IMG/VR virus record: IMGVR_UViG_2695420871_000006
DNA: 30,728 nt
DNA from: a virus
Taxonomy: Duplodnaviria; Heunggongvirae; Uroviricota; Caudoviricetes
Direction: 5' to 3' (one strand)
The notes under the pieces were generated by a model, which saw only the letters and a program-made list of their open reading frames with translations, was not told the DNA's origin and searched no databases. The translations under genes and the position numbers were made by a program. This document shows, one piece after another, positions 310-6,362 of the stretch (position 1 is its first letter; each line of letters starts with the position of its first letter).

Positions 310-1047
310 TCATTCACTCTCTTTCAAACCAGTTTTAACTGTTTGTGGTTTTGGGTAAGGCTGGACTTTGAATAGCTTTGTGTTAAGGCGTTTTCTGGCT
401 CTCTTGTCCAGAAACCGGATGTAACGAAACTGACGGAATTTATGAACACTGGCTCTGTCGATATTAGCCCGCAGATGTTCACCTCGCTGTCCTCCTCGTT
501 TGATTGCATTCTTGCAAATCTCGTGATACCACTCGCCATCAAGTTCATAGAATGTTGTTTCATGACTGCCTACATAATCAAAATTGCTTGCCTGGTACAC
601 GACACCAAGACAGCCACAACGCTCATCTGCAAACGACTGAACCCACTGCACCTGCGGATAAAGTTGTCTGATTAGTTTGAGCGCGTAACTGATTGCCCTT
701 GATTCAGAGTTTCTCGGCATACAGTCATGCAGCCATAACCGGTTAAGCTCCATATATTCGCGGTTCTGCGTGCCAGTTACGACGCGTGCACCATTGTTTG
801 GATTAAGGGCATAACCCCATTGCATTACGCCAACCAGCTCCCGTTCTGAAAATATGCCCAGATGAAGGTAGGAATTATTTACGAAACGATGGCTGTAATG
901 TTTATTGACGACGACCAGCCGGGCCAGCCAGCAACTTATTGTCTCAACCCGTAACTCACGGGAGCCATAACCGACGATATTGTCGTTATAGTGAATAAGT
1001 TCAGGCGTGCTGATGATACGGGATGTAACTTGCTTTCTGTTCCCCAC
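310..1047 (-). CDS. mom: Mom-like DNA (adenine) modification protein, anti-restriction. Start uncertain: GTG at 1045-1047 is proposed, but the frame is open up to 1242.
   Basis: Large ORF overlapping and immediately downstream of com, and the last gene before the phage end as in Mu. The proposed GTG lies in the 3' arm of a hairpin with AAGGAAA in the loop. Confidence 0.7.
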
Positions 1048-1201
1048 GACAGGATTTCCTTGTGTATGTGGGGTGCTCTGTGGCGCTCTGAGATGTGATT
1101 TGATTGAGGGTTTTACAGCGCGGACATTTAACTTCCAGATAACTGAAGCTGGCTCGTGCCAGTAGCTTGTTACAATGTCGGCACCGTATGTTTCGATACA
1201 T
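1001..1201 (-). CDS. com: Com, zinc-finger translational activator of mom (about 66 aa from ATG 1199-1201; the track ORF extends to a TTG at 1246)
   Basis: Protein [34 protein letters not shown]... has a CxxC...CPRC zinc finger resembling Mu Com as recalled from memory. AGGAGG (revcomp of 1212-1217) lies 10 nt upstream of the ATG. Confidence 0.8.
1042..1073 (-). promoter_or_regulatory. mRNA hairpin (CCCCAC, 20-nt loop, GUGGGG) sequestering the putative mom GUG start and SD; candidate Com-responsive translational switch
   Basis: Perfect 6-bp GC stem read from the sequence. Matches the established Com mechanism of unmasking the mom translation initiation region. Confidence 0.5.
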
Positions 1202-1248
1202 GGCCGCATAACCTCCTGCTTTGTTGTTGATATCTTTATCACTCAATC

Positions 1249-1457: not shown

Positions 1458-1751
1458 ATGGACAATCATGTAACGACGAGAAATCGAAAAATGATTGAAA
1501 ATGCGGAAATCTATAATGATTATTTTTCCGATTATTCAGATGCCTGCAAATACAGTTCGAGTGCGGGAGAGTTCATATGCTTCAACTTTTTTATTAAATC
1601 TTATGTTTTTCCTCCACAGCAAGAAGATGGAGGTGTGCCACCTCCTGAAATCACTTTGCACCGTATAGCCTCCGTCTCAATGATGGAGCAACAGGCTAAT
1701 GAGCTGTATAGCATTCTGGGAACGATTCTACAAAAGCGTGAATCGGACTAA
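1458..1751 (+). CDS. Hypothetical protein, 97 aa, AT-rich moron-like gene divergent from com-mom
   Basis: ATG with AAGAGG 6 nt upstream. Visibly AT-rich coding sequence in a GC-richer phage. No recognisable motif. Confidence 0.5.
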   Translation: MDNHVTTRNRKMIENAEIYNDYFSDYSDACKYSSSAGEFICFNFFIKSYVFPPQQEDGGVPPPEITLHRIASVSMMEQQANELYSILGTILQKRESD

Positions 1752-1885: not shown

Positions 1886-1920
1886 CAAACCGGCAGAGGA
1901 CACCACCGGTTTGTATTGTT
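1886..1920 (+). terminator. Hairpin CAAACCGG (12-nt loop) CCGGTTTG followed by TATTGTT; candidate intrinsic terminator for the plus-strand ORF 1458-1751
   Basis: 8-bp perfect stem plus a U-rich tail on the plus strand. Confidence 0.4.
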
Positions 1921-2173
1921 ACATCATGGTACTGTCAGTTCCGGGCTGAGCCGGGTCTGGTTGCTCTGGCTGCGCGTCGGTTTTCGGCTCATTATCAGCA
2001 TCACTGGCCGCAACTGCTGGCCCAATAAGTTTTGCCAGCACTTCATCAACGTAAGTGTCGATTTGTGCCTCAAAATCCTTGCGGACCTGCGCTTTCAGCA
2101 ACTTATTTACTTCACCGGAATACAGTGCCTGTTTTACCAGGTCTTCAGTGACGGTGCCTTTAATTTCTGGCAT
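1919..2173 (-). CDS. Hypothetical small acidic protein, 84 aa, with Pro/Gln-rich C-terminal tail
   Basis: ATG 2171-2173 with AGGAGG (revcomp of 2180-2185) 6 nt upstream. Estimated net charge about -8. Confidence 0.6.
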   Translation of the reverse strand: MPEIKGTVTEDLVKQALYSGEVNKLLKAQVRKDFEAQIDTYVDEVLAKLIGPAVAASDADNEPKTDAQPEQPDPAQPGTDSTMM

Positions 2174-2208
2174 GTATATCCTCCTTATGCGGGAATAAAG
2201 CCCTGCAA

Positions 2209-2391
2209 TCAGGGCTGGGTCGGGTCTTTTGGGAGCGGAGTTACCTGCGCTGTTTTACTGAGTTTTTCAGCTGCTGCGTCCTCAATTTTGCGGCGAACAT
2301 AATTTCTGATGGCCTTATAACCACCACTCACCAGATATAACGCACATACTGCCGTGCAGAAATACAATAAAATAAGCTGTAAAAATGTCAT
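2209..2391 (-). CDS. Hypothetical small membrane protein, 60 aa from ATG 2389-2391: one N-terminal TM helix followed by a basic segment
   Basis: GGAGGG immediately upstream of the ATG. Hydrophobic FLQLILLYFCTAVCALYLV followed by KAIRNYVRRK (positive-inside). The track TTG start at 2403 is less likely. Confidence 0.6.
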   Translation of the reverse strand: MTFLQLILLYFCTAVCALYLVSGGYKAIRNYVRRKIEDAAAEKLSKTAQVTPLPKDPTQP

Positions 2392-2406
2392 TATCCCTCC
2401 CAATTA

Positions 2407-2433
2407 TTGACATGGTGTTGACACCGGTAATAT
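2407..2433 (+). promoter_or_regulatory. Candidate sigma70-type promoter on the plus strand: TTGACA (2407-2412; second copy 2418-2423), 15-bp spacer, TAATAT (2428-2433)
   Basis: Consensus hexamers read from the sequence. No plus-strand ORF lies downstream before the terminator at 2488-2529. Confidence 0.3.
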
Positions 2434-2487
2434 CTGTTAGGTAAAAAGGTGCACTGCATTTTTTGCTTTGGATATAACGATCTTTTT

Positions 2488-2529
2488 GCCGCCGGTTTCT
2501 TGTTTTCCCTTACCGGCGGCATTTTTTTA
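2488..2529 (+). terminator. Strong rho-independent terminator on the plus strand: GCCGCCGGT (15-nt pyrimidine-rich loop) ACCGGCGGC followed by ATTTTTTTAT
   Basis: 9-bp GC-rich perfect stem followed by a T7 run on the plus strand. On the minus strand it is followed by AAAAAG, so it is not a terminator for the esterase gene. Confidence 0.7.
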
Positions 2530-2535
2530 TCCTGC

Positions 2536-4590
2536 TTACGCGTTATTCACTTCCACCACGATACTGTCAATCAGTACCGGGTAAGTCGCATTTTTAGTGA
2601 TATCGGTCACGCGCAACTTGTCTGCCGTAAACGTGCCGACCGGAGACTGCGACAGCATGAATGGTGTCCCGTCCTTACCATCAATGACCGGCGTCACCTC
2701 AATACTGTTGTTACCGGCAAAACGGAAGCCCAGCGTATGCCATTCGTTATTAAATGCACCGAATGACCCCAGTTTCGTGTTTTGCGCCGTATTGCCCTTG
2801 TGGTACATCACGTTAAGGTCTGTGGCATCGCTCTGTACATAGAATGACGCCAGCAAGTTATGACCTGAATTACCTTCCAGCATGACACCCTGAGGCAGTG
2901 AAGAAACCGGCCAGTATAGCGCCAGTGCATACCGATTAGCCGTAAGCGCACCATCAAGTTTAAAACGACAACTGACAAGACCGCCTTTACCCAGGAGGTC
3001 TGCGCCATTACCAGCATCATGCTCAAGGTACCAGGAGGCTCTTCCTGTTTCCTTGGTCAGTTTCATTGCCTTACCCCCGCTGGCTCCGGCATCATCCACG
3101 ATTTGAGCCTTGCCACCTCCGGCAGCCCAACCCTGTGGTGTCAACCGTCCTTCAGACTCAGATGCCCGGTAAGCAAATAGCGTACTCATCGTCGTGGTGT
3201 CTGCGGGTGGCGTGGACGGTTTTGATGGTGTATCAGGTGACGGCTTCTCATCCGGTGGTGTCACGGTCTGCCCGCGCATCAATTCAGCCGTGCGCCCTGC
3301 ATGGAGCATAATAGCTGAGGCCAGACGGTCTGAAATGACGCCCCTGCGTGCCCATGAGCTGAAATGGCTGTCACGCTGTGTCGAAACAAAACTGCCCTGG
3401 GTTCGGGATGCTGCACCGTAATACCCGACAGCCACAATATCCGGGTCTTCCGCCGGAGCATTCGTTGGCGTGCTCTGTCCATTCTCATCCGTCAGGAACG
3501 GTACAAAGAAAATTTTCTGTGCTTCCTTGCCTTTGTAGCCACCGTATACTGCCTCATATTTATCGGTGCCAGCGTTTTTCCAGTAATACGTGGTATCACC
3601 GCAAATCCACGGCACCGTGGTGGCATTTCCACTCACGCACTGCGCAGCAAGCGGAGCCAGGTCAGTTCTGAACTGCTGAACCATGGCCGTGAATAAACTA
3701 TTATGCTGCTGGCTTCCTGAGGCAAGGTCTGCCTCTCCCTGCATCCAGACCACAGCCAGAAGTTTGTTTTTCGGGTTTTTCGCCAGCGCGACTTTGGTGC
3801 GGCTTACCAGGTCCTGATACAGAGGTTTACCGGCCCCCCAGCGTGAAGAATCAGCGGAAGCACCGCTGGCCTCACTGAATGAGCCGTCGGCTCCAGTGGT
3901 GAATGCTGACCCGCCACGACAACAGGGCACCAGAAGTATCCCCGCATTCTGTGGGATATAGGGAAGCAGTTTTTTGGCAATATGCAACCCCTGACTGACA
4001 GTCCCGTACTGGCCTTTTGCCAGATCAGCTTTCGGGTGGTTTATCCCGCTCATATCCTGAACATCATGCAGGCAGTGGTCTGCCGGAATGATGTCGTTGT
4101 ATGTACACGACGTACCGTTGGGCGTTACCGTACTGCGGCGTGCCAGTTGCTTAATGCGTGGGTCCGGGCGGTCAAACGAATCCGGTAACGGCAGCCCCTC
4201 GCCGTAGGCCATGCCATTTGACTGACCCGCGAGAATGACAACAAAGTAATATTCCGGCTCTGAACTGCTGCCATTCGTGCTACCGGAAGGCCCGGCGTTA
4301 TCCGGTGCATTCCAGTCGGAGGGCGTGAGCGTTCCGGCCACGTCAGATGTGATTGGAATGATGCCAGTCACGCCTGAACTGGTGATTTCTGCACTGGGAT
4401 TACCGGATACCGGCATTACCCATAATGGCTCTTTCGTGCTGAAGCGGATCACGCAGTCTGCGAAGGTGATCCCCCCTTTATTACCCGAAGGGCGGAAAGG
4501 GCTTTCAATAAATGCCACCGTGCCACCGGCAACCTTGACTGAAAACTCTCCGGGCATGGCGGAGAGCATTTTCCACTTGGAGTCTGACAT
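2536..4590 (-). CDS. Prophage cargo carbohydrate O-acetylesterase (SGNH/SASA family, NanS-p-like sialate O-acetylesterase) with N-terminal domain, Pro-rich linker and C-terminal lectin-like domain; 684 aa
   Basis: Motifs LAGQSNGMAYG, CCRGGSAF and VVWMQGEADL match the GQSN / WxQGE(S/A)D signatures of the sialate O-acetylesterase family. Linker PPDEKPSPDTPSKPSTPP. Sits downstream of tail fibre genes as nanS-p genes do in EHEC prophages. Confidence 0.65.
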   Translation of the reverse strand: MSDSKWKMLSAMPGEFSVKVAGGTVAFIESPFRPSGNKGGITFADCVIRFSTKEPLWVMPVSGNPSAEITSSGVTGIIPITSDVAGTLTPSDWNAPDNAGPSGSTNGSSSEPEYYFVVILAGQSNGMAYGEGLPLPDSFDRPDPRIKQLARRSTVTPNGTSCTYNDIIPADHCLHDVQDMSGINHPKADLAKGQYGTVSQGLHIAKKLLPYIPQNAGILLVPCCRGGSAFTTGADGSFSEASGASADSSRWGAGKPLYQDLVSRTKVALAKNPKNKLLAVVWMQGEADLASGSQQHNSLFTAMVQQFRTDLAPLAAQCVSGNATTVPWICGDTTYYWKNAGTDKYEAVYGGYKGKEAQKIFFVPFLTDENGQSTPTNAPAEDPDIVAVGYYGAASRTQGSFVSTQRDSHFSSWARRGVISDRLASAIMLHAGRTAELMRGQTVTPPDEKPSPDTPSKPSTPPADTTTMSTLFAYRASESEGRLTPQGWAAGGGKAQIVDDAGASGGKAMKLTKETGRASWYLEHDAGNGADLLGKGGLVSCRFKLDGALTANRYALALYWPVSSLPQGVMLEGNSGHNLLASFYVQSDATDLNVMYHKGNTAQNTKLGSFGAFNNEWHTLGFRFAGNNSIEVTPVIDGKDGTPFMLSQSPVGTFTADKLRVTDITKNATYPVLIDSIVVEVNNA

Positions 4591-4894
4591 CGTCTTTTCT
4601 GCCTGTTTCTGAATTAAACAGAGTCAGAATAACAACCGCTGATAAATATGTGTTTTGCGGAAATTCAAAAAAAGCATCACGGTACTTTTTGTGACGGAGC
4701 CGGTTAGGCAGGAACATAACGACAAAGGATGGACAGGCCAATACGATAACCGCATATTACCGGCTTATAATTGATTTAACGATTCATGACGCTGCGGTCA
4801 GCATCTGAAAATATGCGTTATTTCAGAAACCCCTTGCCTGTATATGGCGATATTATTATTCCTGTTTTTATCATTGATTTACATGGTGATGTTT

Positions 4895-5416
4895 ATGCAA
4901 CTGATTAATGTTAAACGATATTACCCGGAACAAAAACCCTTTGGTAATGATGTACAGTATTTTCAAAGTGAAGATGGTAAGGATTTCTATGAGTCCCTGC
5001 CATTATTCACCAAAAAATATAAACTTTGCATAACCCCTGACAGCGGTGTTATCTGCTCAATATCACAGGATGCTTCGGCGCTGTATCCTGCGGGTTTTTC
5101 CGTTGTTGAGACAGACGAATTACCTGAAGGTACTGATATTTCAGGTAACTGGAAGTTTGATAATGGTGTCATCTCACAACTCCCGGTTAACTATACCAAA
5201 AAAGCGGAAGCACTGCGCCAGTCATATCTTAATCAGGCATATGAAAAGATTAATGACTGGAGAACTGAGTTACAGCTGGGCACGATTAGTGATGAAAACA
5301 GAGCTGCGCTTACACGATGGATGAAATACATCAGTCAGGTGAAAAAAATGGAACTACCAGCGATTAAAAACAAAGCTGAATTTGACGCCATTAAATGGCC
5401 GGAGAAGCCTGAATAA
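4895..5416 (+). CDS. Tail fibre assembly chaperone (Tfa/U-like), opposite strand to the fibre gene; start at ATG 4895 proposed (track ORF starts at 4844)
   Basis: C-terminus ...TRWMKYISQVKKMELPAIKNKAEFDAIKWPEKPE is typical of Tfa proteins. The gene is AT-rich by eye. Confidence 0.75.
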   Translation: MQLINVKRYYPEQKPFGNDVQYFQSEDGKDFYESLPLFTKKYKLCITPDSGVICSISQDASALYPAGFSVVETDELPEGTDISGNWKFDNGVISQLPVNYTKKAEALRQSYLNQAYEKINDWRTELQLGTISDENRAALTRWMKYISQVKKMELPAIKNKAEFDAIKWPEKPE

Positions 5417-5450: not shown

Positions 5451-6362
5451 TCAGACGGATGAAACTGTGCGCCAGGCATTACCGATATATATCTGCACCG
5501 GACGGTAATAAACGCCTCCGATATTATCGGCTGAACTTTTCCCGGTATCCTGCACGTTAATACCTGAAAGCATACAACCAGAAGGTGCACCATAACTCCA
5601 GGACATTTCATTACCTCCGGGTGAATGGTAACTCTGGGCACCAAGCTGAACGTTGCTAACGTATTTGTTATCAGCAGTAGCTTCAGTCATACCGGAGGTA
5701 ATGTATATGTCCTGCGTCCCGTCAAAAGGAACGCCATTAATATTTCTTGGGGTGGAGAGTTTATTCGCGGCAACGGCGGTGCCGTCCGATGGCAGAGCAT
5801 TCGCCGCCTTATTCACCGTTTCCCGTAAACCGACGTTATCGATAAAAGCCCCTTTATCCGGAATGTCTGCGCCGTTCTGCTCCCTGCGCAGGTAACGGTT
5901 ATCACCTTCGCTTTTGCTGTAAACATCCAGATTATTACGGGCGGTTCCCTTATTCTCCAGGTCGGCGAGATTCTGATCCTTCGCCAGGGCATTAACGTCA
6001 CCGGGACCAAGACTGTTTTTTGTGGCAAGCGTCCCCAGACCAAGATAACCACGGGCCAGACGCTGGGCCTCCGCACCGGCATCAGCAATTTCTTTCAGGT
6101 TATTTTTCCGGGAAAAGGCATTCGCAGCGATAATGGCTTTAATGGACAGCGTAAGCTGGTTTAACTGCGCCTTATCCGGCTGAATACTGGCTTCAGCCAG
6201 AATATTCAGCAGTTCGGCCTGGAGAATATTCAGCCAGTCCTGACCAATCCAGCTGATACCTTTTTGTCCGTCACCTTCGGTAAACCAGGTTGTGGTATTA
6301 CTCTGCGCCGGTGCCAGCGCAGGCATATTCGCCACGCCGGAATTATTATCAACATGAAACAT
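5451..6362 (-). CDS. Tail fibre protein (Mu S-like), 303 aa
   Basis: Follows the baseplate gp47/gp48 homologues. Conserved fibre N-terminus MFHVDNNSGVANMPALAPAQS... and a Gly/Ser-rich tip. Confidence 0.8.
   Translation of the reverse strand: MFHVDNNSGVANMPALAPAQSNTTTWFTEGDGQKGISWIGQDWLNILQAELLNILAEASIQPDKAQLNQLTLSIKAIIAANAFSRKNNLKEIADAGAEAQRLARGYLGLGTLATKNSLGPGDVNALAKDQNLADLENKGTARNNLDVYSKSEGDNRYLRREQNGADIPDKGAFIDNVGLRETVNKAANALPSDGTAVAANKLSTPRNINGVPFDGTQDIYITSGMTEATADNKYVSNVQLGAQSYHSPGGNEMSWSYGAPSGCMLSGINVQDTGKSSADNIGGVYYRPVQIYIGNAWRTVSSV

What the first reader, a model, noticed from the sequence alone, without database searches (positions are those of the whole stretch)
1919..2391. Two-gene cassette of a small membrane protein and a small acidic protein, both with strong ribosome-binding sites
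A 60-aa protein with one N-terminal TM helix and a basic juxtamembrane segment is followed 35 nt later by an 84-aa strongly acidic protein. Each has a near-consensus SD, and a hairpin (2200-2215) sits between them. Both end in Pro/Gln/Thr-rich tails. Small membrane protein plus small partner cassettes next to tail fibre regions are typical of superinfection-exclusion, toxin/immunity or lysis-modulating modules. Nothing in the sequence identifies which, if any, applies.
Basis: inference. Interest (0 to 1): 0.55.

Follow-up and report, generated by a model that had tools for sequence, protein, structure and literature searches.

The report
Conserved phage small-protein pair, function unknown
The two small genes are real and already catalogued (Pfam DUF1378 and DUF826); they travel with a sialic-acid esterase gene in E. 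coli prophages, usually next to the cell-bursting (lysis) genes, and nobody yet knows what they do.

Summary
On the minus strand lie a 60-aa membrane protein (2391..2209, Pfam DUF1378) and an 84-aa acidic helical protein (2173..1919, Pfam DUF826). Both have strong Shine-Dalgarno (SD) sites and are under purifying selection. The window is the right end of a Mu-like E. coli prophage.

The pair belongs to a mobile module: NanS-p-type esterase, antisense small RNA gene, DUF1378, DUF826. In Stx and other lambdoid phages this module sits directly upstream of the holin. Here it sits between a gin remnant and com-mom, 25 kb from the lysis genes.

Either protein can occur without the other. DUF1378 occurs alone fused to the end of Rz (Lonsdalea) or directly before a holin. 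DUF826-like genes occur alone after a holin or after Rz1. This argues against an obligate toxin-antidote pair.

No homologue has a known function, and there is no structural or defence-system match.

Best guess, at low confidence: a late-expressed, membrane-anchored accessory of the lysis step.

The families are already known, so interest is modest.

The parts
2209..2391 (-). DUF1378 gene, 60 aa: N-terminal transmembrane helix (about residues 3-25), basic cytoplasmic helix (26-45), disordered Pro-rich tail
   Evidence: Pfam PF07125 E 9e-32; phrog_494; RefSeq WP_000143468.1 'DUF1378 family protein'. AlphaFold gives one helix over residues 3-50 with the tail below pLDDT 50. Hydropathy and charge. 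Core dN/dS 0.14.
2395..2401 (-). Shine-Dalgarno GGGAGGG for DUF1378, 3 nt before the ATG
   Evidence: Read from the sequence; conserved in window-type relatives.
1919..2173 (-). DUF826 gene, 84 aa: helices 10-17 and 20-50, then a disordered acidic tail (55-84) ending in TMM
   Evidence: Pfam PF05696 E 6e-16; phrog_311. P0077 is 100% identical and was seen on at least 1000 contigs. AlphaFold model; charge -8.5; core dN/dS 0.24.
2180..2186 (-). Shine-Dalgarno AAGGAGG for DUF826, 6 nt before the ATG
   Evidence: Read from the sequence. Present in Mu-like lineages; only a weak GAGAAA in lambdoid lineages.
2199..2216 (-). 7-bp hairpin AGCCCUG-AUUG-CAGGGCU containing the DUF1378 stop codon; lineage-specific and probably incidental
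   Evidence: MFE structure with z -1.76, 12 of 200 shuffles as good. The spacer sequence differs in lambdoid lineages.
2418..2528 (+). Antisense small-RNA gene between the esterase and DUF1378: -35 TTGACA 2418-2423, 18-nt spacer, -10 TAAAAA 2442-2447, 10-bp GC-rich terminator stem 2487-2521, T7 run 2522-2528. It occupies the same position and orientation as the sRNAs PasA and PasC.
   Evidence: Terminator fold -23.5 kcal/mol, z -5.2. A hairpin plus T-run is present in 70 of 72 distinct upstream regions (200 loci), with 34 different stem sequences that keep pairing; the strict promoter pattern is present in 60 of 72 (alignment). PasA/PasC coordinates come from PMC8550237 Table S6 and loci L086/L087. 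There is no blastn similarity to PasA or PasC themselves. Rfam gives only a sub-threshold Esr41 hit: 22 bits against a gathering score of 102.
2536..4590 (-). NanS-p-type sialate O-acetylesterase gene, 684 aa (SASA plus DUF6645 domains): the constant upstream neighbour and first gene of the module
   Evidence: Pfam SASA and DUF6645; 66% identical to the VT2-Sakai NanS-p. An esterase lies upstream of DUF1378 in every E. coli-type locus with enough flank.
4677..4743 (-). 3' remnant (about 66 nt) of the gin invertase gene. In intact relatives gin directly precedes the esterase on the same strand.
   Evidence: blastn of the window against L001, with the L001 annotation.
310..1246 (-). com-mom operon of the Mu-like prophage: the downstream boundary of the inserted module (together with the variable orf97 at 1458-1751 on the plus strand)
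   Evidence: Pfam Mom and Zn_ribbon_Com; RefSeq annotation of the identical locus.

Best explanation
The cassette encodes two separate, conserved phage proteins of the Pfam families DUF1378 and DUF826.

**Predicted architecture.** DUF1378 is a single-pass inner-membrane protein. Its N-terminus is predicted to be outside and its basic helix and tail in the cytoplasm (positive-inside rule; inference). Its membrane helix is almost invariant (LYF..T.V..LYL.SGGY). DUF826 is a soluble, acidic, helical cytoplasmic protein with a disordered tail that ends in a short conserved hydrophobic tip.

**Expression.** No promoter of their own was found. They form the distal end of a mobile module (NanS-p esterase, antisense sRNA, DUF1378, DUF826) that recombines between lambdoid (Stx-type) and Mu-like prophages. 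Expression with the phage late genes is inferred from this, not shown.

**Most likely role (inferred).** An accessory of the lysis step. DUF1378 would act in the membrane on the timing or execution of envelope disruption: either by oligomerising like a small holin or antiholin, or by binding a membrane protein through its conserved helix. In the E. coli lineages DUF826 would be a cytoplasmic modulator that docks on the basic juxtamembrane helix.

**Limits on the model.** The pair is not tied to one particular holin or endolysin, and it is not essential for lysis.
For: **Real genes and family membership:**

**Architecture:**. The transmembrane segment is invariant across 22 and 9 diverse sequences.

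**Late-operon placement directly upstream of the holin** in VT2-Sakai, PhiR12_4 and 1720a-02, and in about 130 IMG/VR and metagenome loci.

**Independent lysis-cassette contexts:**
- The same pair lies upstream of a different holin family, PF16080.
- Lonsdalea has lambda-type holin, lysozyme, Rz/Rz1 and then DUF1378, whose ATG overlaps the Rz stop (ATGA), with no esterase.
- DUF1378 alone lies directly before the S21-type holin in L185.
- DUF826-like genes lie directly after a holin (L165) or after Rz/Rz1 (L157-L160).

**No sense-strand sigma-70 promoter** upstream of the pair.

**Complementary charges:** +2.8 on DUF1378 residues 26-45 against -8.5 on DUF826.
Against: - In this window and in three diverged Mu-like lineages, the pair is about 25 kb from the lysis genes. 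It is still under purifying selection there (dN/dS 0.09-0.30). In Cedecea it sits after tail genes.
- The Q-S and Rz-cos intervals of lambdoid phages and the right end of Mu are all typical cargo ('moron') sites. Proximity to lysis genes may therefore be positional rather than functional.
- E2348/69 prophages PP2 and PP5 have the esterase and the S21-like holin but no pair, so the pair is dispensable.
- There is no similarity to any characterised holin, antiholin or other protein in Pfam, PHROGs, NCBIfam, PADLOC, PDB sequences or Foldseek.
- No expression or interaction data were found in the searched literature.
Confidence: 0.35

Rival explanations
1. Lysogen-benefit cargo (moron) acting on the host envelope, such as superinfection exclusion or another block to incoming phage or colicin. 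It would use a small membrane protein in the way HK97 gp15 or T4 Imm do.
For: Every context is a known cargo site: Q-S, Rz-cos, after the tail fibres, and the Mu right end. The module travels with other conversion genes, namely stx and nanS-p. The highly conserved transmembrane helix suggests a specific and conserved host target.
Against: No sense-strand promoter lies upstream of the pair; the only good promoter there points the other way. PADLOC gives no match. The predicted soluble part is cytoplasmic, whereas known entry blockers usually act at the periplasmic face (inference). The ATGA overlap with Rz in Lonsdalea implies late co-translation.
Confidence: 0.2
2. Helper of the NanS-p esterase: for example membrane tethering, folding, or timed release of the signal-peptide-less enzyme.
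For: In E. coli-type phages DUF1378 always follows an esterase, at about 150 nt. This holds for all loci with enough flank in three independent scans, including three Mu-like lineages where the trio moved without lysis genes. A stand-alone DUF826-like gene sits next to a sialyltransferase-like gene, phrog_4603.
Against: The esterase occurs without the pair in E2348/69. DUF1378 occurs without an esterase in Lonsdalea and Cedecea. Close physical linkage alone could keep the genes together. NanS-p enzymes are reported active on their own (my own knowledge of the NanS-p literature; not checked here).
Confidence: 0.15
3. Toxin-antidote module. Either DUF1378 is a small membrane toxin neutralised by acidic DUF826, or it is a type I toxin controlled by the adjacent antisense sRNA.
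For: The size and shape of DUF1378 resemble type I toxins. An sRNA gene lies divergently just upstream and would be fully complementary to any read-through mRNA. The two proteins carry opposite charges.
Against: DUF1378 exists without DUF826 in L185-type phages, Cedecea and Lonsdalea. The sRNA follows the esterase, not DUF1378: it is absent where the esterase is absent, and PasA/PasC are present where DUF1378 is absent. DUF1378 has a strong, unoccluded SD (fourth fold, z -0.25). No toxin-antitoxin or defence profile matches.
Confidence: 0.06
4. Not functional genes: chance ORFs or fragments of one disrupted gene.
For: Some database entries fuse the two (P0199) or extend DUF826 upstream to 126-141 aa.
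Against: Two separate Pfam families match above threshold. dN/dS is well below 1. Start codons and spacing are conserved in about 200 loci. The fusion is a frameshift product, and the upstream extension is closed in the window.
Confidence: 0.01

Closest known systems
Pfam DUF1378 (PF07125) / PHROG 494
   Same: Full-length match at 109 bits. Same length, same invariant transmembrane motif, and same position after a NanS-p-type esterase as in 933W, VT2-Sakai and other Stx phages.
   Different: The host element is a Mu-like prophage rather than a lambdoid one, and no holin follows. The family itself has no assigned function.
Pfam DUF826 (PF05696) / PHROG 311
   Same: N-terminal 57 residues match at 59 bits. 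Same helical core plus acidic tail. 100% identical to a RefSeq protein seen on at least 1000 contigs.
   Different: It belongs to a sub-lineage (MPEIKGTVTE...) only 38% identical to the Stx-phage form. The family is tiny (54 clusters among 1.84 billion representatives) and uncharacterised.
Holin/antiholin accessory pairs of phage lysis cassettes, e.g. T4 RI (membrane-tethered) plus RIII (small cytoplasmic), or single-TMD holin-like partners such as mycobacteriophage Ms6 Gp5 (from my own knowledge)
   Same: A small membrane protein with a charged C-terminus plus a small cytoplasmic protein of about 80 aa, encoded beside holin genes in most relatives.
   Different: No sequence or fold similarity. 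No dual-start motif. Not holin-specific: three holin families, or none, are adjacent. Far from the lysis genes in this window.
PasA/PasC Hfq-dependent sRNAs of EPEC (EcOnc51/52 in EHEC)
   Same: The neighbouring sRNA gene has the same position and orientation: antisense, with its terminator abutting the esterase stop codon and a TTGACA promoter. The esterase-PasA-holin synteny is described in bioRxiv 10.64898/2026.05.13.724894.
   Different: No detectable sequence similarity to PasA or PasC. The body and putative seed differ, and expression is untested. This concerns the neighbouring RNA, not the two proteins.
Type I toxin-antitoxin loci with divergent sRNA (tisB/istR-1, zorO/orzO)
   Same: A small hydrophobic protein with an sRNA gene lying divergently just upstream.
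   Different: The sRNA co-varies with the esterase, not with DUF1378. DUF1378 has an open, strong SD and a long conserved cytoplasmic helix.

Membership tests
Pfam DUF1378 (PF07125) | Profile match above the gathering score over the full ~59-residue model | tested here: met
   109.4 bits against a cut-off of 25; residues 1-58 match model positions 1-58 of 59.
Pfam DUF826 (PF05696) | Profile match above the gathering score | tested here: met
   58.7 bits against a cut-off of 25; residues 1-57 match model positions 1-58 of 75. The Stx-phage orthologue scores 136.6 bits.
Holin (operational definition) | Small protein with at least one transmembrane domain and a charged hydrophilic C-terminus | tested here: met
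   DUF1378 has 60 aa, a transmembrane segment at 3-25 and a basic C-terminal half.
Holin (operational definition) | Encoded next to the endolysin or lysis cassette | tested here: not met
   In the window the endolysin and spanins are at about 26.8-27.9 kb and the pair is at 1.9-2.4 kb. The feature is met in lambdoid relatives and in Lonsdalea.
Holin (operational definition) | Membrane permeabilisation or lethality on expression; supports endolysin release | not testable with these tools
   Needs induction experiments.
Known holin/antiholin families by sequence | Match to a lysis-category profile | tested here: not met
   The Pfam and PHROGs hits are only to families of unknown function.
Two-protein toxin-antidote module | Obligate co-occurrence of both partners | tested here: not met
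   DUF1378 occurs alone in L185/L187/L189, Cedecea and Lonsdalea. DUF826-like genes occur alone in L157-L160 and L165.
Type I toxin-antitoxin | The antisense RNA is genetically tied to the toxin gene and pairs with its mRNA | tested here: not met
   The antisense hairpin plus T-run is present in 70 of 72 upstream variants, and the two lacking it are the esterase-less loci. PasA/PasC occur without DUF1378.
Known anti-phage defence systems (PADLOC) | Profile match | tested here: not met
   Only one marginal hit: PbeC, E 0.0076, 12.9 bits, for DUF826. Nothing for DUF1378.
Prophage-expressed exclusion gene | Own promoter active in the lysogen | tested here: inconclusive
   The consensus scan finds no sense-strand promoter between the esterase and DUF1378. 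Expression itself could not be tested.
PasA/PasC sRNA family (the neighbouring RNA) | Antisense position directly after the esterase stop codon, with a Rho-independent terminator | tested here: met
PasA/PasC sRNA family (the neighbouring RNA) | Sequence similarity to PasA or PasC | tested here: not met
   blastn with word size 7 finds no hit in the window. True PasC is found only in L045/L065 and L087.

The most novel reading that the evidence does not exclude
DUF1378 is a new kind of single-helix lysis effector or timer of double-stranded DNA phages. Its near-invariant transmembrane helix would either form a small depolarising channel or bind and inhibit a conserved host membrane enzyme, in the manner of the single-gene lysis proteins phiX174 E and LysM. 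DUF826 would be its cytoplasmic brake, docking through its acidic tail. Because such a mechanism would not depend on any particular holin or endolysin, it could work equally in pinholin/SAR-endolysin lambdoid phages, lambda-type holin phages and holin-less Mu-like phages. That would explain why the module is kept in all three.
Probability: 0.12. Interest if true: 0.7.

Novelty: already known. Interest (0 to 1): 0.35.

Why it matters
The pair is carried by most Stx-converting phages, between the toxin/NanS-p region and the lysis genes, and lysis is the step that releases Shiga toxin. If the pair tunes lysis timing or envelope integrity, it would affect toxin and esterase release from EHEC.

Three results are useful regardless of function:
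- The esterase, sRNA, DUF1378 and DUF826 form one transferable module shared by lambdoid and Mu-like phages.
- Either protein can stand alone, which rules out the toxin-antidote reading.
- A PasA/PasC-position sRNA gene lies just upstream of the pair.

The work also flags a common mis-annotation. Long 'DUF826' ORFs of 126-141 aa, such as VT2-Sakai orf43, hide the DUF1378 gene.

Tried and rejected
**Searches for a functional homologue that gave nothing usable**
- Pfam, PHROGs, NCBIfam and PADLOC.
- PDB sequence profiles for both families.
- Foldseek of the DUF826 model against PDB and BFVD: no hit at E<=0.001.
- An exhaustive HMMER profile search of 1.84 billion representatives: only 54 small relatives and no informative domain fusions.
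- Literature: only one paper names both DUFs, and only in passing. The second hit was a typo for DUF1738. A locus-tag search returned only unrelated papers.

**Ideas rejected**
- The 2199-2216 hairpin as a regulatory element: not significant and not conserved.
- The sub-threshold Rfam Esr41 hit as the identity of the sRNA: 22 bits against a gathering score of 102, and no Esr41 in 13 related loci.
- Specific coupling to the S21 pinholin or SAR endolysin. E2348/69 has the S21-like holin without the pair. The pair also occurs with PF16080 and PF05106 holins and in Mu-like phages.
- The 126-141 aa 'long DUF826' forms as real isoforms. Their start codon is a by-product of the conserved KID-A codons of DUF1378, and that frame is closed in the window.

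**Not possible with these tools:** a complex (multimer) structure prediction.

Full report
**What is there**

The finding lies on the minus strand.
- ORF1 (2391..2209) encodes a 60-aa protein.
- ORF2 (2173..1919) encodes an 84-aa protein, 35 nt downstream.
- SD sequences GGGAGGG (2401..2395) and AAGGAGG (2186..2180) precede the two start codons.
- ORF1 has a strongly hydrophobic segment (Kyte-Doolittle 2.27 over residues 3-21), followed by a basic stretch (+2.8 over residues 26-45) and a Pro/Gln/Thr-rich end.
- ORF2 has pI 4.2 and net charge -8.5.
- AlphaFold models give one continuous helix (3-50) plus a disordered tail for ORF1. For ORF2 they give a short helix (10-17), a long helix (20-50) and a disordered acidic tail.

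The region folds no better than 12 of 200 shuffles (z -1.76). The hairpin is missing from the lambdoid versions of the spacer. I treat it as incidental.

**Are they genes?**

Yes.
- ORF1 matches Pfam DUF1378 (109 bits, cut-off 25) and PHROG 494. ORF2 matches Pfam DUF826 (59 bits) and PHROG 311.
- RefSeq annotates the identical locus in E. coli the same way.
- Across 41 and 48 distinct DNA variants, dN/dS is 0.14 and 0.24 in the conserved cores at dS of about 0.8-0.9.
- They are not pieces of one gene. The fusion P0199 is a frameshift product. The 126-141 aa 'long DUF826' annotations, including VT2-Sakai orf43, use an alternative frame across the 3' end of DUF1378 that is closed in the window.

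**Genomic setting**

The window is the right end of a Mu-like prophage of E. coli. From low to high coordinates:
- mom and com (310-1246, minus strand);
- a variable 97-aa ORF on the plus strand;
- DUF826;
- DUF1378;
- a 684-aa esterase with SASA and DUF6645 domains, 66% identical to NanS-p of VT2-Sakai;
- about 66 nt left of gin;
- tail-fibre and baseplate genes;
- further on, the Mu-type lysis genes and the late activator C at about 26.8-28.4 kb.

**Synteny elsewhere**

- In Stx and other lambdoid phages the order is Q, (stx), nanS-p, DUF1378, DUF826, holin S, R, Rz. PMC10462455 mentions the two DUFs there only in passing.
- In 80 IMG/VR loci seeded with DUF1378, 80 seeded with the esterase and 80 metagenome loci, every locus with enough flank has an esterase about 150 nt upstream of DUF1378. 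Downstream lies either an S21-type holin or com-mom.
- The Mu-like arrangement exists in three diverged lineages: the window type, the L025 type and L156. In the first two, compared directly, both ORFs are under purifying selection (dN/dS 0.09-0.30).
- The module is mosaic. L094 carries a 99%-identical esterase with a DUF1378 that is only 57% identical, in a lambdoid phage.

**The pair is not obligate**

- E2348/69 prophages PP2 and PP5 have the esterase and an S21-like holin but neither small gene.
- DUF1378 occurs without DUF826 in three settings:
  - directly before the holin in L185, L187 and L189;
  - after tail genes in Cedecea neteri;
  - in Lonsdalea britannica, as the last gene of a lambda-type lysis cassette (holin PF05106, lysozyme, Rz/Rz1), with its ATG overlapping the Rz stop codon and no esterase.
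- DUF826-like genes occur without DUF1378 directly after a holin (L165) and after Rz/Rz1 (L157-L160). In the latter they sit next to a sialyltransferase-like gene.
- The pair also precedes a different holin family, PF16080, in L161.
- Both families are very small and confined to phages of Enterobacterales. The DUF826 profile finds 54 clusters among 1.84 billion representatives.

**Interpretation**

What is shown:
- There are two conserved proteins: one with a predicted membrane anchor and a near-invariant transmembrane helix, the other predicted soluble and acidic.
- No sense-strand promoter was found upstream of them.
- They are the distal part of a module that moves between phage types.

What is inferred:
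- Late co-expression with the esterase.
- A physical interaction between the basic helix of DUF1378 and acidic DUF826.
- A role at the lysis step.

The case for lysis rests on repeated, partly independent placement inside or against lysis cassettes: three holin families, and translational coupling to Rz.

The case against it has four parts:
- The Mu-like and Cedecea contexts are far from lysis genes.
- All these positions are typical cargo sites.
- E2348/69-type phages do without the pair.
- There is no similarity to any characterised protein.

My confidences:

| Reading | Confidence |
|---|---|
| Lysis-accessory | 0.35 |
| Envelope-directed cargo or exclusion | 0.20 |
| Esterase helper | 0.15 |
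| Toxin-antidote, including type I with the sRNA | 0.06 |

The remainder is 'something else'.

**The neighbouring RNA gene**

The 144-nt gap between the esterase and DUF1378 holds a well-formed plus-strand (antisense) small-RNA gene.
- It has TTGACA (2418-2423), an 18-nt spacer and TAAAAA (2442-2447).
- It has a 10-bp GC-rich hairpin (2487-2521) and a T7 run ending 8 nt from the esterase stop codon. The fold is -23.5 kcal/mol, z -5.2.
- Of 72 distinct upstream regions from 200 loci, 70 keep a hairpin plus T-run. These use 34 different stem sequences, including G-C to A-T swaps. 60 match a strict promoter pattern. The two exceptions are the loci without an esterase.
- This is exactly the position and orientation of the Hfq-dependent sRNAs PasA and PasC of EPEC (PMC8550237 Table S6). 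The esterase-PasA-holin synteny has just been described (bioRxiv 10.64898/2026.05.13.724894).
- The window RNA has no detectable similarity to PasA or PasC and only a sub-threshold Rfam Esr41 hit.
- I regard it as an occupant of the same slot as PasA/PasC with a different sequence. It belongs with the esterase rather than with DUF1378.

**Verdict**

- The genes are members of already catalogued but uncharacterised families, so the finding is not new as an object.
- Its value is the clarified module structure, the exclusion of the toxin-antidote and single-gene-remnant readings, and a testable link to lysis in Stx phages.

Noticed in passing
window 2418-2528 (+): A conserved antisense small-RNA gene (TTGACA, 18-nt spacer, TAAAAA, 10-bp terminator stem plus T7) lies between the esterase and DUF1378. 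It has the same position and orientation as the EPEC sRNAs PasA and PasC but no sequence similarity to them, and no Rfam family matches (only a chance-level Esr41 hit).
   Followed up: yes
window 4590-5416: Only about 66 nt of the 3' end of gin remain (4677-4743). The tail-fibre assembly gene at 4844-5416 is on the opposite strand to the tail-fibre gene at 5451-6362. The invertible G region therefore appears deleted and frozen compared with the otherwise 99%-identical prophage in strain JE86-ST05 (L001).
   Followed up: partly
window 1458-1751 (+): A 97-aa ORF convergent with DUF826 has no Pfam, PHROG, NCBIfam or PADLOC match. It is present in some Mu-like relatives and absent from others (e.g. 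L008, L015, L018).
   Followed up: partly
L162 3300-4290 (also L163, L164): The esterase-DUF1378 gap is expanded to about 970 nt by tandem copies of the antisense terminator/sRNA unit together with truncated 5' fragments of DUF1378 (MTFFHLIFMYF...). This indicates a recombination-prone spot.
   Followed up: no
L003 4547-4966 (VT2-Sakai orf43); proteins P0143, P0148-P0152, P0161, P0164: Many database 'DUF826' proteins of 126-141 aa start at an ATG inside DUF1378, in another reading frame. In VT2-Sakai this annotation leaves DUF1378 itself unannotated. This is probably a systematic mis-annotation.
   Followed up: partly
protein P0140: A 96-aa protein joins the first 35 residues of DUF826 to the N-terminus of Mom. 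It is evidently a deletion variant of the same Mu-like right end.
   Followed up: no
L157-L160 about 5001-5240; L165 287-517: Stand-alone DUF826-like genes carry a short Trp/Leu-rich N-terminal extension (MWLDWLF..., MKITHWLKSL...) that the paired forms lack. It could be a membrane-binding substitute for DUF1378. In L157-L160 the next gene matches phrog_4603 ('alpha-2,3-sialyltransferase').
   Followed up: no
window 2536-4590 (-), residues 1-~97: The N-terminal ~97 residues of the esterase do not align with the N-terminus of the VT2-Sakai NanS-p (the match starts at about residue 94). No Pfam domain was found in this part of the window esterase, whereas lambdoid esterases such as those in L162/L164 carry DUF1737. 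The same N-terminus also occurs at 97-99% identity in lambdoid loci L094/L095, so it is not specific to Mu-like phages.
   Followed up: partly
L045/L065 6336-6774: A rearranged lambdoid locus in which DUF826 is truncated and joined to a second esterase 3' fragment, followed by a genuine PasC copy. One locus therefore carries both the window-type sRNA slot and PasC.
   Followed up: partly
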